Of a stretch of DNA of 64,000 nt, positions 13,461 through 56,985 are shown piece by piece. The notes below the pieces were generated by a model, which ran no database searches, was not told the DNA's origin, and saw only the letters and a program-made list of their open reading frames with translations. The position numbers and the translations under genes were made by a program. Within the stretch, counting starts at the first letter, position 1. Every line of letters begins with the position of its first letter. Location of the stretch: assembly GCF_963921235.1 (NCBI RefSeq), contig NC_086097.1, positions 29,266,001 through 29,330,000 of the forward strand, given 5' to 3'. Origin of the DNA: Mobula hypostoma. Lineage: Eukaryota.

Positions 13461-13559
13461 TATACCAACACTAATCCTCCAGCCTGGTGCAATGTTGGTG
13501 GGTTTCGTGTCCACGAGGTTACAGATGGGGTTAATTACTGACAGGGACTGTGATGGAAT

Positions 13560-14098
13560 GTGTTCGTCCATCGTCAACGTCGATGAGCACCTCGACACCA
13601 TAATGATGGTGTCGAGACTAGCACGTGATTTGGATTTAAGTGAGGGAGAGTTGTGCAGCGTCAGCCTCACTCTCTCTTCCCAATTCCCATCTGGATCCAG
13701 TGGCAAGACAGAGTCTAGATGGCTGGAGTGGATGACCAGGACATCTTCTGTGTCTTGTCCTGCTCTACACGTCCCACGACGCTTGCAGAGACCGTCTTCT
13801 TGACCATTGGACCTTCCATTGGTCTCGTCCGCTCAATCCGCCGGAGTCTGTCTTCACATGCTGGGATAGACAACTCCCTATCTCACTGAGGGTTTGAGAC
13901 CCGTCGGTTACCCTCACCTGGTTTAGCCGGCTTGTCGAAGCCATTGCCCGGGGTGTGGCCACTGTCACATGCTACGGGGAGCCACAGGTGAGTGCTGAGT
14001 GCCAGGTGGGGACCAAAAGTGGACTAATTGCCTTGAAAAGGACGCGACATGTTCCCCCACCAGAGGTGCTACCCCTCCCTGACACCCCATACACCCCA
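13560..14098 (-). mobile_element. 539-bp non-autonomous retroelement (RTE-like 5' UTR plus structured 3' end)
   Basis: Perfect 13-bp TSD ACTGTGATGGAAT at 13547-13559 and 14099-14111; GC-rich and non-coding; perfect 11-bp hairpin at 13591-13616; RTE affiliation is inference. Confidence 0.8.
13913..14097 (-). ncRNA. Candidate HDV-like self-cleaving ribozyme with expanded L3
   Basis: Minus strand: P1 GGGGUGU/ACACCCC, P2 CUCACCUG/CAGGUGAG, P3 GGC/GCC, L3 starting UCCCCG, GGG after P1', P4 GGCUU-CGAC-AAGCC, J4/2 GGCUAAA; P1 starts 1 nt inside the TSD-defined 5' end. Confidence 0.7.
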
Positions 14099-15589
14099 AC
14101 TGTGATGGAATACTGTCACAACGACACAGAATCTCCACTGAGTGGTGGGGGGGAGTTCAGTAATCATGACCCAGAGCGTGCAAGCCAGCCAAATCCAACA
14201 GTATATTGGAATGTTATTGGAAAGGATGTTGTATACTCAGGCAATCCAAAGATAGTTTAGGTACATTACAAAATTACATTGGGAATTTTAGTATAATAGA
14301 GACTAGAGCAGGGGTTCTCAATGTTTTTTGTGCCTTGGACTAATACCATTAAACAAGGGATCTGTGGACCCCAAGACTACAACATATTGGATCTCCCACT
14401 ACAACAGTGTAACAGTGGACGATTTAGTATATTATTGTTACAGTGGGAGTTATAGTGGGTCAGGATGTTATAGTGAAGTTCTTAATATATTGAACGTTTG
14501 CAGAAGAGATTTAATATTTAGGATGTGGCGGAGAGAGATTCGGTATATTAGAATTTCACAGTGATGGATTCAGTGTACTAGAATGTGAGGAGAGATTTAG
14601 TATGTCTGTATGTCACAGTGAGAGATTTAGTACATTGGCACCTACCATGCTCTGTGTAAAAAACCAACCTCTGACATTCCTCCTATACTTGCTTCCAATC
14701 ACCTTAAAATTACACTCCCTTGTATTAGCCATTTCCGCCCTGCGAAATAGTCATCTGTCCTCTCTATCTGTGCTTGTTATTATTTTATACACCTCTATCA
14801 AGTTGCCTCTCAGCCGCCTTAACTTCCGAACGGAAAAGTCCTAGGCTCAATCTATCCTCGTAAGATATGCTCTGATCCTGAAACCATCCTAGTAAATCTC
14901 CTCTGCACTCTCTCAAAAGCATTCACTTCCTTCCTAGAATGAGGCGACCAGGACCGAACACAATATTCCCAAGTATTGGAGAATGCTGTGCTATTGTTCC
15001 CAATAAGATCTCTGATCAAAGACAGTAGCCATAGAAACAGGCTCATTGCCCCATCTAATCTGTGCAAAACTCTTATACTGTCCAGTGATGGTGTTGCAAT
15101 TGTTACATTGAATTGCAACAGTGACCCCAACAGACCTTCAGAATATGGGAAGGGGATTTCATCCACTTTACCAGCAGATTTTCTCTCACTCTGAGTACCT
15201 GTTTCATGTCAAATTGGATATTGTAACCTTAATAACCTGGGGCTGAAAAATTGGGCAGGCTTCACAAGGAAAGACGAGGTGTTACTCCCCACTACGTCAC
15301 TAAAAATCTCACGGTTTTGAGAATTAGGCCATTCAGCCCATCGAGTCTGCTCTACCATTCCATCGTACCTGATTTATTATCTCTCTCAGCTCCATTCTCC
15401 CCGTAACCTTTGACCTCCTTACCCATCAGGAATCAAGAACCTCATCCGGACCCGTTGAAGGGTCTCTGCCAAAACGTTCACTGCTCCATAGGTGTTTACC
15501 TCAGTTTATTCAGTAGTTTGTGTGTGTGTTACTCTGGATTTCTAGCGTCTGCAGAATCTCTTGTGTTTATGGGAGTTTCGTTTTGAGAC

Positions 15590-31239: not shown

Positions 31240-33482
31240 TCGCGGTTGCCGTCACACCTAGAGGGAGAAAAGTGGGCAGTCAGCAAGCGACTGCCCTTGT
31301 TCGTGTCTCAGAGTCAGATTCAGATTAGTTTGTTGTCATGTAGGATTCAAGATTCAAATTTATTTATCACTGATCATCTTTGTTCGCTGTGTCCTGCTGA
31401 GGGGTTTCAGCCCGAAATGTTGACTGTTTTTCTTTTCCATAGATGTTGCCTGGCCTGCTGAGTTCCTCCAGCATTTTGTGCGTGTTGTTTGTTTGCCATA
31501 TACATTTGCATGTACTAGGAATTTGCTTTTGGTAAGGGCATGACATTCAACAAAAAACAGAACTACCACTCCCTTTATGTTTTTAAACTCTCGCACCATT
31601 CTCTGTAAACTCCAGAGACAGTTGTGTGTGAAAATCTCAGGAGGTTACCAGTTTCTGAGATACTCAAACCACCCCATCTGGCACCAACAATCATTTCACA
31701 GTCAAAGTCACTTAGATCACATTTCTTCCCCATTCTGATGTTTGGCCTGAACAGCAGATGAGCCCCTTGACCATGTCTGCATGCTTTTATGAAAAAGGAA
31801 ATGCTAAGATGATAATAAGGGGGTAGGTTTAAGAGTCCAAGAATGTGGCCAGATATTCTAATGAAGTATAGCTGCTGGCATCGCCTACTTCATGATTTCA
31901 TCAACATGTTGACCCCAGGATATTCTGGTCCCTCGAACAGGGCACAGGACATTCTGAAAGGGGAGAGAATATGCTATAGGTTGTGCTCGACTACGGTTCT
32001 AACATAGAAGACAAGAATAACACAACATACTGTAGGAGATATAAAGACAATGTAGGAGATTGTATTTCTTTGTTTGGTGAATTTATTTAGAGCTACAGTG
32101 TGGAATAGGTCCGTCTGGCCCTATGAGCCACACTGCCCAGCAACCCGGACAACCCCAGATTTAACCCTAATCTAATCACGGGATGACTTACAACGACCAA
32201 TTAATCTACCCGGTACATCTTTGGACTGCGGCAGGAAACCAGAGCACCCAGGGAGAACCCCACGCATTCCACCAGGGGGACATACAAACTCCTTACAACG
32301 GACGCCGAGACTGAACTCTGAACTCCGACGCCCTGAGCTGCAATAGCCCTGCTAACCACGACACTACCGTGGCACCTGTGAATGCCTGCAAGAAAGTGAA
32401 TCGCAGGGTAGCATATGGTGGCAATTTGCTTTGAACTTTGAAGGTCCTACAGAGAGAGTTTGTGGAGTTAGGCAGGAAGTTAAAAAGCAGGATATCAAGG
32501 GTTGTAATTTTGGGTGTACTTTTTGTGCCATGTGCTGGTAAGGTAAGAAGTGGTGAGATATTACATTTAAATGTGGAATTGAAACTGGAGTTAGTTTATT
32601 ACTGTTGCATGTACCTAGGGACACTGTAAACCCTAGTTTTGCATGCCATCCTCACAGATTATTGCAAACGTAAATATATTGAGGTAGTACAAGGGGAAAC
32701 AATGAGAGAATGCAGAATATAGTGTTACCGTCACAGAGGAAGGGCAGTGCAGGGAGAGGGGAGAGGGGAGAGTGTCTGGAGTGGGATGGGGCTGCTCTCG
32801 AGCCTGGTGTCTCTTCTCCCAGAACATACTACAGACCCTGCCCTCCCCTCCAGAAGCTGCTGGACAAGGCTTCCCTGGTCCAGTTGTTCTGATCAGGCAG
32901 CCAAAGAGTGACCCCAGATACAGACCATAAGACAAAGGAGCAGAATTAGGCCACTTGGCCCATCATATCTGCTTCTCCATTCCATCATGGTTGATTTATT
33001 ATTCCCCTCAACCCCATTCTCATGCCTTCTCCCAATAACCATTAATGCCCTTACAGATCAGAAACCTAACATCTCCCATTTTAAATACACCTTGGCCTCC
33101 AGAGTCATTTGTGGGCATAAATTCCACAGATTCACCACCCTCTGGCTAAAGAAATTCCTCCTCAACCCTGATCTGAAGGGGCATCCTTGTATTCTGATAG
33201 TGGCTGCAGAAACATATCAGAAACATCCTCTCCTCACCCGCTTTTCAATATTTCATAAGCTTCAGTGAAATCCCCCCTCATTCTTCTGAGCTCCAGCAAG
33301 AACAGGTTCAGAGCTATCAAATGCTCCTCACAGTTAACCTTTTGATTTCCCGAGATCATTCTCTTGAAAATTCTTTGGACCCTCTCCAACACCAGCACAT
33401 TAGGTAAGAGGTCCAACACTGCTCACAATATTCCAAGTGTGGTCTGACCAATACCCTAGAATGCCTCAGCATTACATCCTTG

Positions 33483-56625: not shown

Positions 56626-56985
56626 AACTCTATCTGGGCCTTTCAATAATTGGTAGGTTTCAATGTGATTCTGCATCTCCCTCATCCCTGTCATTCTTAT
56701 TAACCCAAGTGAGTACAGGTCCAGAGCCATCATAACTCCTTATATGTTAACTCTTTCATTTCCAGGTTCATTCTCATGAATATCCTCTGGAGCCTCTCCC
56801 ATGCCAGCACGTCCTGCTTTACACAGAGTCCTAAACTGCTCACAATACTCCCAATGTGGTCTGACCGTTGCCTTATAAAGCCTCAGCATTACATCCTTGG
56901 TTTTATATTCTAGTCATCTTGAAATGAATTCTAACATTGCATTTTCTAAAATGGGGATGAACTTTAGTGAGCGGGCAGCCGTATT

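What the first reader, a model, noticed from the sequence alone, without database searches (positions are those of the whole stretch)
13913..14097. HDV-like double pseudoknot at the exact 5' end of a short retroelement, with a 21-nt L3
Seen (minus strand): P1 14097-14091 pairs with 13956-13950 (7 bp); P2 13992-13985 with 13920-13913 (8 bp); P3 GGC/GCC; P1.1 CC/GG; P4 hairpin 13942-13929; J4/2 GGCUAAA with candidate catalytic C at 13926. The predicted cleavage site falls within 1 nt of the TSD-defined 5' boundary, and the P1 5' strand is tandemly duplicated (second copy 14088-14082). Known: HDV-like ribozymes process 5' ends of R2 and RTE retrotransposons, with L3 normally about 7-8 nt. Inference: a ribozyme-launched, promoterless non-autonomous element with an atypical L3 insertion (UCCCCG-UAGCAUGUGACAGUG) that standard descriptors would miss.
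Basis: partly seen in the sequence, partly recalled or inferred. Interest (0 to 1): 0.8.

Follow-up and report, generated by a model that had tools for sequence, protein, structure and literature searches.

The report
Self-cleaving RNA fold heading a retrotransposon
The first 190 bases of a very abundant short jumping-gene copy fold like the hepatitis-delta self-cutting RNA, which would trim the element's RNA to its exact first base; this is a known trick of such elements, here with an unusual extra hairpin in the catalytic loop.

Summary
A 13-nt target-site duplication puts the element's 5' end one base upstream of the predicted cleavage site.

P1 and P2 are separated by a 98-nt J1/2. The 21-nt L3 is private to this copy: 29 of 29 other copies have a 28-nt L3 with a 5-bp hairpin.

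The element is a roughly 540-557-nt internal-deletion derivative of a 4.1-kb endonuclease plus reverse-transcriptase LINE. That LINE begins with the same fold. The core 32-mer occurs 1296 times in the genome. 51 of 77 copies start within 4 nt of G1.

A sister family has compensatory changes in P4 and in the J1/2 rod. P1, P2, P3, P1.1 and J4/2 do not differ (0 of 46 positions).

Against: Rfam models do not match, the cleavage-site pair is G-C not G.U, P1/P2/P3 show no covariation, and cleavage is untested.

Verdict: probably a real HDV-like 5'-processing ribozyme, a known kind, with an L3 helix that may be a new variant. The scan's earlier notes hold no look-alike of this sequence.

The parts
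14099..14111 (-). 5' target-site duplication (ATTCCATCACAGT read on the minus strand)
   Evidence: Perfect 13-nt direct repeat with 13547-13559 (D5).
14098..14098 (-). One extra T between the duplication and G1
   Evidence: The TSD script also places the repeat end at -1 for this copy.
14091..14097 (-). P1 5' strand GGGGTGT. The predicted cleavage site is 5' of G14097.
   Evidence: Pairs with 13956-13950. 34 of 77 family copies start exactly here and 51 of 77 start within 4 nt.
13993..14090 (-). J1/2 peripheral domain (98 nt), including the second GGGGTGT repeat at 14088-14082
   Evidence: In a near-majority copy this region folds alone into one rod closed by a 10-bp helix (nt 11-20 with 92-101): -45.8 kcal/mol, z = -2.38. 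It carries three family-level compensatory pairs.
13985..13992 (-). P2 5' strand CTCACCTG
   Evidence: 8 bp with 13920-13913. No majority difference between the two families.
13981..13983 (-). P3 5' strand GGC
   Evidence: Pairs with 13957-13959.
13960..13980 (-). L3, 21 nt in this copy. U13980 and G13975 are L3 positions 1 and 6. C13979 and C13978 form P1.1.
   Evidence: The family has 28 nt with a GCTGT/ACAGC hairpin, whose 5' arm and the first 2 of its 9 loop bases are deleted here.
13957..13959 (-). P3 3' strand GCC
13950..13956 (-). P1 3' strand ACACCCC, directly after P3
13943..13949 (-). P1.1 3' strand GG (13949-13948), then the joiner GCAAT (GCAAC in the family)
13929..13942 (-). P4 hairpin GGCTT-CGAC-AAGCC
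   Evidence: The first pair is G-C in family 1 (13 rows) and C-G in family 2 (30 rows).
13921..13928 (-). J4/2 GGCTAAAC, with the candidate catalytic C at 13926
   Evidence: These columns are invariant in alignment A1, partly because both copy sets were picked by patterns covering them.
13913..13920 (-). P2 3' strand CAGGTGAG
13605..13912 (-). Remainder of the LINE 5' region kept in the short element. It holds an ORF1-like reading frame in better-preserved copies.
   Evidence: Colinear with LINE copies L111 and L113 up to family nt ~515. A 91-aa ORF is open in L067 and broken in the window copy.
13560..13604 (-). LINE 3' end (about the last 42 nt, ending GACGAAC plus a short tail)
   Evidence: Matches the 3' ends of L111 and L113. 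Other copies end in (AAC)n or (AACC)n.
13547..13559 (-). 3' target-site duplication
   Evidence: D5.

Best explanation
The first ~192 nt of the family (185 nt in this decayed copy) encode an HDV-like self-cleaving ribozyme. It defines the 5' end of an endonuclease plus reverse-transcriptase LINE with RTE-like architecture, and of that LINE's short internal-deletion derivative.

Proposed mechanism (the cleavage chemistry, co-transcription and reverse-transcription steps are inferred; only the folds, the TSDs and the copies' 5' ends were observed here):
1. The element is transcribed as part of a longer RNA.
2. P1 forms (nt 1-7 with 149-155), immediately 3' of P3/L3.
3. The 98-nt J1/2 folds into a rod. 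Its closing helix uses the second GGGGUGU repeat and brings P1 and P2 together.
4. C179 in J4/2 (C13926 in the window) acts as the catalytic base, and the L3 U...G pair holds the metal ion. The RNA is cut 5' of G1.
5. The trimmed RNA is copied by the LINE's enzyme, which recognises the shared ~42-nt 3' end. This gives 8-14-bp target-site duplications and copies that begin at G1.

The window copy is one old, decayed insertion, not a source element.
For: 1. All elements of the nested double pseudoknot are present in the right order and adjacency. These include two G:C pairs in P1.1, U and G at L3 positions 1 and 6, and a C after GG at the start of J4/2. (paper passages) name these as hallmarks of the family.

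2. The stricter descriptor finds only this locus in the 64-kb window, and 1 locus in 33 shuffles. Its P1 start lies one base from a boundary defined independently by the TSD.

3. The family's 5' ends cluster at the predicted cleavage site.
- The core 32-mer has 1296 exact copies and 0 in the reversed control.
- Among 77 copies sampled by that core alone, 34 start at nt 1 and 51 within nt 1-4.
- 27 of the 45 copies with a direct repeat of 10 nt or more have it end within -1 to +2 of G1.

4. The autonomous partner has the same 5' end. L113 is ~4.1 kb and starts within ~2 nt of G1. It has Exo_endo_phos and RVT_1 domains and a 3' UTR of ~40 nt. Reviews place HDV-like ribozymes at the 5' ends of RTE and baggins elements.

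5. A sister family exists in the same genome: 864 pattern hits, 0 in the control.
- Compensatory double changes: P4 163:176 (G-C in 13 rows, C-G in 30) and the J1/2 rod at 41:76, 46:71 and 54:69.
- An insertion plus a substitution keeps the closing helix paired.
- P1, P2, P3, P1.1 and J4/2 show 0 of 46 majority differences, against 19 of 92 in the rod.
- L3 differs only at positions 4 and 5.

6. Contigs from runs labelled as four different organisms (coded) show the same pattern. L3 positions 4-5 vary, and depth collapses at the element's first base.

7. Long structured J1/2 domains are established for this family: 216-498 nt in silkmoth R2, and the P1.2 'pinch' of drz-Agam-2-1.

8. A Pol III head is unlikely. 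There is no tRNA and no Rfam hit at E<=10. A conserved TTTT run lies at nt ~59-62.
Against: - No cleavage assay, and no RNA 5'-end data. All runs offered were contigs.
- No Rfam HDV-family model matches, even at E<=10 and on near-majority copies.
- The cleavage-site pair is G1-C155, not the G.U wobble usual in the family.
- L3 carries a 19-nt hairpin insertion. I found no precedent for this.
- P1, P2 and P3 show no covariation, because they do not vary in the material I could reach.
- Family differences are block-like (17 of the 19 rod differences lie in nt 41-76). Mosaic exchange between lineages, rather than selection on the core, could therefore explain part of the conservation contrast.
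- 13 of 110 rows carry A at P1 position 6, and the four seen keep C opposite, giving an A.C mismatch.
- The pseudoknot-free fold of the whole 192 nt is no more stable than shuffles (z = -0.25).
- 5'-end clustering alone would also follow from a fixed transcription start.
Confidence: 0.75

Rival explanations
1. A relic or disabled HDV-like fold. The ancestor had a working ribozyme, but the L3 hairpin insertion and the G-C pair at the cleavage site abolished cutting. The 5' region is now kept for another role, such as translation initiation, binding of the element's protein, or an internal promoter. The 5' end would then be set by transcription initiation.
For: - L3 is 28 nt, against the usual short loop, and the first pair is G-C.
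- No Rfam match.
- The 19-nt hairpin shows at most one majority difference between the families, at a CpG site (C in 77% of family-1 rows, T in 50% of family-2 rows). This would fit a sequence-specific binding site.
- L1Tc shows that one 5' segment can be both promoter and ribozyme (abstracts).
Against: - Every catalytic hallmark is kept in both families while neighbouring positions drift.
- The hairpin sits after L3 position 8. As I recall, the last one or two L3 bases are the least constrained; I did not check this in any call.
- Both families amplified to hundreds or thousands of copies with this exact architecture.
Confidence: 0.17
2. A classical SINE or LINE 5' end set by an internal polymerase promoter, with the HDV-like pairings a coincidence of a GC-rich structured leader.
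For: - The loose descriptor hits about 3.5 loci per 128 kb of shuffled sequence.
- 5'-end clustering is expected for any fixed start site.
- The whole-region fold is not unusually stable.
Against: - The stricter descriptor is rare (1 locus in 33 shuffles) and here coincides with the boundary to within 1 nt.
- No tRNA, 5S or 7SL likeness.
- A conserved TTTT run inside the element.
- Compensatory changes in P4 and the J1/2 rod, and an invariant core.
Confidence: 0.06

Closest known systems
HDV-like ribozymes at the 5' ends of RTE and baggins retrotransposons, including drz-Agam-2-1 (review passages; PMC4908430 passages). The primary paper, Ruminski et al. 2011, was not held.
   Same: - Position at the very 5' end of an APE+RT LINE that inserts with little specificity.
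- Double-pseudoknot core.
- A structured J1/2 domain whose closing helix brings P1 and P2 together.
   Different: - A 19-nt hairpin inside L3.
- A G-C rather than a G.U first pair.
- A duplicated P1 strand that doubles as the 5' arm of the J1/2 closing helix.
- The host is a 3.5-Gb genome.
- RTE clade membership was not tested by phylogeny.
R2 ribozymes and R2 SIDEs (PMC3774820 passages; PMC3414825 seen as a listing and abstract only)
   Same: - P1 can lie far from P1' (J1/2 of 216-498 nt).
- The L3/P3/P1.1 nucleotides are highly conserved while the periphery drifts.
- Duplicated P1-like segments at the 5' junction can shift or extend the cleavage site.
- Internally deleted non-autonomous copies keep the ribozyme and the 3' end.
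   Different: - R2 is specific to the 28S gene and often cuts in upstream 28S sequence.
- This element is dispersed and the predicted cut is at the element's own first base.
- R2 has a different endonuclease type.
L1Tc and NARTc of Trypanosoma cruzi (abstracts of PMC3185411 and PMC3383444)
   Same: An autonomous LINE and its truncated non-autonomous partner share a 5' segment that is an HDV-like ribozyme.
   Different: - The 77-nt Pr77 is minimal and also acts as a promoter.
- Here the fold spans 192 nt, and promoter activity is unknown.
Viral HDV and CPEB3 ribozymes (PMC13635239 passages)
   Same: - Five helices.
- A two-G:C P1.1.
- The L3 U...G pair five positions apart.
- The catalytic C at the start of J4/2.
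   Different: - Those are compact (about 70-85 nt), with a short J1/2 and a closed short L3.
- No sequence-model match here.

Membership tests
HDV-like self-cleaving ribozymes | Nested double pseudoknot in the order P1-J1/2-P2-P3-L3-P3'-P1'-P1.1-P4-J4/2-P2' | tested here: met
   All strands are at the stated coordinates and in this order. My descriptor scan recovers it.
HDV-like self-cleaving ribozymes | A P1 of about 7 bp whose 3' strand directly follows P3/L3 (PMC3774820) | tested here: met
   7 Watson-Crick pairs. ACACCCC directly follows GCC of P3.
HDV-like self-cleaving ribozymes | A two-pair P1.1 between L3 and the bases after P1' | tested here: met
   C119-G157 and C120-G156. No majority difference between the families. 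85.5% of cells are paired in decayed copies.
HDV-like self-cleaving ribozymes | Conserved U and G in L3 forming the reverse wobble | tested here: met
   U at L3 position 1 and G at position 6. G123 is an invariant column in A1. Positions 4-5 differ between the families.
HDV-like self-cleaving ribozymes | Catalytic C at the first position of J4/2 | tested here: met
   C179 (C13926) follows GG, which can extend P4 (C162-G177). The column is invariant, partly because the copies were selected by patterns that include it.
   28 nt with a 5-bp hairpin in 29 of 29 other copies. 21 nt in the window copy.
HDV-like self-cleaving ribozymes | G.U wobble at the cleavage site (recalled; only a reference title was seen) | tested here: not met
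   G1 pairs with C155 in both family majorities. C155 is in a CpG and reads T in some decayed copies.
HDV-like self-cleaving ribozymes | Covariation supporting the helices | tested here: inconclusive
   Compensatory pairs in P4 (1) and the J1/2 rod (3). P1, P2, P3 and P1.1 do not vary between the two families.
HDV-like self-cleaving ribozymes | Match to a curated covariance model (Rfam HDV-family entries) | tested here: not met
   No hit at the gathering threshold or at E<=10, on the window or on near-majority copies.
HDV-like self-cleaving ribozymes | Mg2+-dependent self-cleavage abolished by C-to-U at the catalytic position | not testable with these tools
   No bench assay. No raw RNA reads were offered.
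RTE-clade LINE (the autonomous partner) | One long ORF with an AP endonuclease then a reverse transcriptase, a very short 3' UTR and a simple-repeat tail (definition recalled) | tested here: met
   Exo_endo_phos and RVT_1 in order. The last open frame ends ~40 nt before the tail. Tails are (AAC)n or (AACC)n.
RTE-clade LINE (the autonomous partner) | Placement inside the RTE clade in a reverse-transcriptase phylogeny | not tested
   No reference set was at hand. The Atlas look-up gave only generic RVT_1 clusters.
Classical SINE (polymerase III head from tRNA, 7SL or 5S) | A 5' head related to a small RNA gene | tested here: not met
   ARAGORN finds none. Rfam finds none at E<=10. The 5' ~515 nt are colinear with the LINE instead.

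The most novel reading that the evidence does not exclude
This is an active HDV-like ribozyme of a structural subclass not yet described.
- A helix (P3.1) is inserted into L3 just after the metal-binding U...G motif.
- The first pair is Watson-Crick G-C.
- The P1 strand is duplicated, and the second copy closes the J1/2 rod and may offer an alternative cleavage register.

The 19-nt P3.1 shows at most one majority difference between two families (at a CpG site) whose rod apex differs at 17 of 36 positions. This would point to a sequence-specific role, for example as a tertiary contact or as a handle for the element's own protein.

If true, descriptor and covariance-model searches have been blind to a ribozyme class present in thousands of copies in large animal genomes.
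Probability: 0.4. Interest if true: 0.6.

Novelty: new variant of a known kind. Interest (0 to 1): 0.45.

Why it matters
HDV-like ribozymes are known to launch promoterless LINEs. The examples described in the reviews and papers I could read are mostly from invertebrates, protists and the rDNA-specific R2.

Here the same device heads a LINE and its deletion derivative, which together fill a 3.5-Gb genome with thousands of copies. It escapes Rfam's models. It also carries an insertion at a place (L3) usually treated as fixed in size.

If it cleaves, three things follow:
- The structural definition used to search for this ribozyme class becomes wider.
- It gives a natural test of how much the active-site loop tolerates.
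- It shows that non-autonomous elements in large animal genomes can depend on RNA self-processing rather than on a polymerase III head.

Tried and rejected
- **Rfam.** Searched at gathering and permissive thresholds on the window, on the core alone and on near-majority copies. No HDV-family hit. The only hits were chance-level snoR117, fstAT and MIR162_2.
- **ARAGORN.** No tRNA.
- **Covariation inside family 1.** The short form and the form with a ~145-nt insert have the same ribozyme majority, so nothing can be learned there.
- **RNA 5' ends.** The look-up of sequencing runs offered only Logan contigs, with shares of 0.04-0.37, and no raw RNA reads. The four runs I laid therefore say nothing about RNA starts, strand or expression.
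- **A second cluster of 5' ends at the second GGGGTGT repeat.** 6 of 77 copies were scored as starting at nt 6-9. At least two of these look like full-length copies with indels, so this is only a weak hint.
- **Whole-ribozyme pseudoknot-free folding.** Not informative (z = -0.25).
- **Clade of the LINE.** The Atlas gave only generic reverse-transcriptase clusters.
- **Literature.** Ruminski et al. 2011 and Webb et al. 2009 are not held. A search for HDV-like ribozymes with fish words listed one R2-focused paper holding 'HDV-like'. A search for L3 insertions returned unrelated papers. Neither search shows absence from print.
- **Earlier scan notes.** No look-alike by sequence. The word search gave unrelated cases.
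- **The insert of subfamily B as a tRNA.** Box A/B-like motifs are visible by eye, but Rfam gives no tRNA match at E<=1.

Full report
**1. What is in the window**

- P1: 14097-14091 GGGGTGT with 13956-13950 ACACCCC.
- P2: 13992-13985 with 13920-13913, 8 bp.
- P3: GGC 13983-13981 with GCC 13959-13957.
- P1.1: C13979/C13978 with G13948/G13949.
- P4: a 5-bp hairpin at 13942-13929.
- J4/2: GGCTAAAC, with C13926.
- A second GGGGTGT at 14088-14082.

A perfect 13-nt direct repeat (14099-14111 and 13547-13559) brackets a 538-nt insertion. One T lies between the repeat and G14097.

Two things were missed:
- The P1 5' strand is 98 nt away from P2, so there is a large J1/2.
- The 21-nt L3 is peculiar to this copy (see section 3).

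**2. Is it more than chance?**

I wrote a descriptor scan. The loose version requires:
- a 7-bp P1 starting with G;
- a J1/2 of up to 150 nt;
- a 6-bp P2 and a 3-bp P3;
- a 2-bp P1.1;
- an L3 of 6-30 nt;
- CNAA before P2'.

This version is not specific. It gives 5 loci in the real window and a mean of 3.5 in 33 dinucleotide shuffles.

I then added U at L3 position 1, G at L3 position 6 and a P4 hairpin. This leaves only the candidate in the real window, and 1 locus in 33 shuffles. So the fold alone would turn up by chance a few hundred times in a genome of this size. What makes it significant is that its P1 start falls one base from a boundary defined independently by the target-site duplication.

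**3. The family**

Copy number and similarity:
- The element is highly repeated. There were 5662 first-look candidates, and the best 40 were 89-92% identical to the window copy.
- The 32-nt P4-J4/2-P2' core occurs 1296 times exactly, and 0 times in the reversed control.

L3 in the family:
- In an alignment of the window copy with 29 others, all 29 have 7 more bases in L3.
- The family L3 is 28 nt: UCCCCGUA, a 5-bp hairpin (GCUGU/ACAGC with a 9-nt loop), then G.
- The window copy has lost the 5' arm of that hairpin and the first 2 loop bases.

5' ends and duplications:
- I fetched 80 further copies chosen only by the core 32-mer.
- I dropped two segmental duplicates and one rearranged copy. Of the remaining 77:
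  - 34 start at nt 1;
  - 51 start within nt 1-4;
  - 6 start at nt 6-9;
  - 1 starts at nt 14;
  - 10 start at nt 29 or beyond;
  - 9 could not be scored because they are truncated further or rearranged.
- A crude search for target-site duplications over 110 rows found a repeat of 10 nt or more in 45. In 27 of those it ends within -1 to +2 of G1.

**4. The autonomous partner**

One core-selected copy (L075, extended as L111) leaves the short element's sequence at family nt ~515. It continues into open frames with Exo_endo_phos and RVT_1 matches, then rejoins the short element for the last ~42 nt.
- A full-length copy, L113, is ~4.1 kb and starts within about 2 nt of G1. It has the same domain order. 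Its last open frame ends ~40 nt before the tail.
- L111 lacks ~600 nt present in other copies.

The short element is therefore an internal-deletion derivative consisting of three parts:
- the ribozyme;
- about 320 nt holding an ORF1-like frame (91 aa open in L067);
- the LINE's 3' UTR.

It is not a polymerase III SINE:
- There is no tRNA.
- There is no Rfam hit at E<=10.
- A TTTT run at nt ~59-62 is conserved.

The architecture and the (AAC)n or (AACC)n tails resemble RTE elements. I did not test the clade by phylogeny, and the Atlas gave only generic reverse-transcriptase clusters.

**5. The J1/2 domain**

In a near-majority copy, the 98 nt between P1 and P2 fold on their own into a single rod.
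- The rod is closed by a 10-bp helix (nt 11-20 with 92-101), leaving 3- and 4-nt linkers.
- Free energy is -45.8 kcal/mol, z = -2.38, and 4 of 200 shuffles fold as well.
- The 5' arm of that closing helix is the second GGGGUGU repeat.

Published work supports both features:
- R2 ribozymes have J1/2 loops of 216-498 nt, and up to 700 nt can lie between P1 and P1' (PMC3774820, passages).
- The same R2 paper describes duplicated P1-like segments at 5' junctions that shift or extend the cleavage site. This is a ready model for the tandem repeat here.

**6. Comparative evidence**

Within family 1, the two subfamilies have the same ribozyme majority. Individual copies decay neutrally, so they cannot show covariation.

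Contigs from four public runs:
- I laid contigs from four runs labelled as four different organisms (coded) on a near-majority copy. All were contigs, so nothing can be said about RNA.
- Depth collapses just beyond the element's first base.
- L3 positions 4 and 5 vary: they read A/A in 73-77% of the depth in one run and T in others.
- Loose ends revealed a diverged sister family.

The sister family in the window's genome:
- A 29-nt pattern taken from those loose ends finds 864 places with up to 2 mismatches, and 0 in the control.
- I fetched 31 copies and aligned 30. One, with a large insertion, was dropped.
- They were aligned with the window copy and the 12 least-decayed family-1 copies.

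Counts on the full pseudoknotted structure:

| Measure | Observed | Control |
|---|---|---|
| Cells forming a standard pair | 86.0% | 34-48% with the partner slid by 1-3 columns |
| Covariation score | 0.150 | 0.118 shuffled mean; 0 of 500 shuffles reach the observed value |

Family-level compensatory changes:

| Pair | Row counts by pair type (13 family-1 + 30 family-2 rows) |
|---|---|
| P4 163:176 | G-C 13; C-G 30 |
| Rod 41:76 | G-C 12; A-U 20 |
| Rod 46:71 | A-U 13; G-C 17 |
| Rod 54:69 | C-G 13; U-A 22 |

- In each row the first pair type listed is the family-1 majority and the second the family-2 majority.
- For P4 the counts split exactly by family.
- In the closing helix, family 2 has an inserted C opposite a U94-to-G change.
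- Each of these is a single event between two lineages.

Majority differences between the two families:

| Region | Differences |
|---|---|
| P1, P2, P3, P1.1 and J4/2 | 0 of 46 |
| L3, first eight bases | 2 of 8 (positions 4 and 5) |
| L3 hairpin | 1 of 19 (a CpG site) |
| J1.1/4 | 3 of 5 |
| P4 | 4 of 14 |
| J1/2 rod | 19 of 92 (17 of them in nt 41-76) |

The catalytic core is thus invariant where the periphery changes with compensation.

Two caveats apply:
- P1, P2 and P3 give no covariation signal at all.
- The block-like distribution of differences could partly reflect exchange between lineages.

**7. Against the ribozyme reading**

- No Rfam HDV-family model matches, even permissively and on near-majority copies. 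This is expected, given 98 extra nt in J1/2 and 19 in L3, but it is still a failed test.
- The first pair is G-C, not G.U.
- I found no description of a helix inside L3. My literature search for one was noisy and does not show absence.
- 13 of 110 rows carry A at P1 position 6, and the four seen keep C opposite. The R2 survey does report mismatches at the top of P1 in about a quarter of elements.
- No cleavage or RNA 5'-end evidence exists.

**8. Conclusion**

The most likely reading (about 0.75) is a genuine HDV-like 5'-processing ribozyme of an RTE-like LINE and its deletion derivative. This is the arrangement already known for RTE, baggins, R2 with its SIDEs, and L1Tc with NARTc. Here it has a helix inserted in L3 and a Watson-Crick first pair.

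The window copy itself is an old, decayed insertion whose L3 hairpin is broken.

The main rival (about 0.17) is that the fold is a disabled relic kept for another role. A chance resemblance on a promoter-defined 5' end is unlikely (about 0.06).

Noticed in passing
L042, L047, L048, L056, L062, L066, L070, L096 (about oriented positions 660-840 of each locus): A subfamily of the short element carries a ~145-nt insert at the deletion junction. The insert has box A/B-like motifs and its own copy of the LINE 3' end (tail ...GATGGACGAACC TTA). It looks like a tRNA-type SINE that uses the same LINE, but Rfam gives no tRNA match at E<=1.
   Followed up: partly
L114-L144 (genome G000, many contigs): An older sister family has the same 5' fold and the same tandem GGGGTGT repeat. 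There are 864 pattern hits with up to 2 mismatches. Its copies also begin at the first or the second repeat.
   Followed up: partly
L067:391-666 (minus strand); window 13605-13820 region: Better-preserved short elements keep a 91-aa open frame that starts ~90-110 nt after the ribozyme and runs through the deletion junction to the tail. It is broken in the window copy. Whether it is a real ORF1 is unknown; no Pfam match was found for the equivalent frame of L113.
   Followed up: partly
L049 and L081: Two copies have their first ~50-150 nt inverted relative to the rest of the element. This is the pattern expected from twin priming during target-primed reverse transcription.
   Followed up: no
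L079 (G000:C1:138945637-138946743): Two core 32-mers lie 181 nt apart on the same strand, giving a partial tandem duplication of the ribozyme region.
   Followed up: no
L089, L045/L046, L069 (5' junctions): Some copies show a third, partial GGGGTGTAT-like unit just upstream of the usual two. The 5' repeat number may therefore vary.
   Followed up: no
Family nt 126-144 (the remaining part in the window is 13961-13972): The L3 hairpin, including its 9-nt loop, shows no real majority difference between two families whose J1/2 apex differs at 17 of 36 positions. Such sequence-level conservation of a loop hints at a specific contact.
   Followed up: partly
L111 versus other LINE copies: LINE copy L111 lacks ~600 nt found between its positions ~1277 and ~1289 in about 20 other copies. 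LINE-internal sequence gave 1463 first-look candidates.
   Followed up: no
L067:964-1100 (upstream flank of that copy): The flank encodes an endonuclease-like peptide (GDLNAKIG...). That copy therefore sits inside another LINE, an example of insertion into a transcribed repeat.
   Followed up: no
window 14596-14793 (-), 14990-15071 (+), 32752-32905 (+), 56765-56951 (+): These other loose-descriptor hits lack the L3 U/G positions and/or a P4 hairpin. They occur at the rate seen in shuffles, so they are taken as chance.
   Followed up: yes
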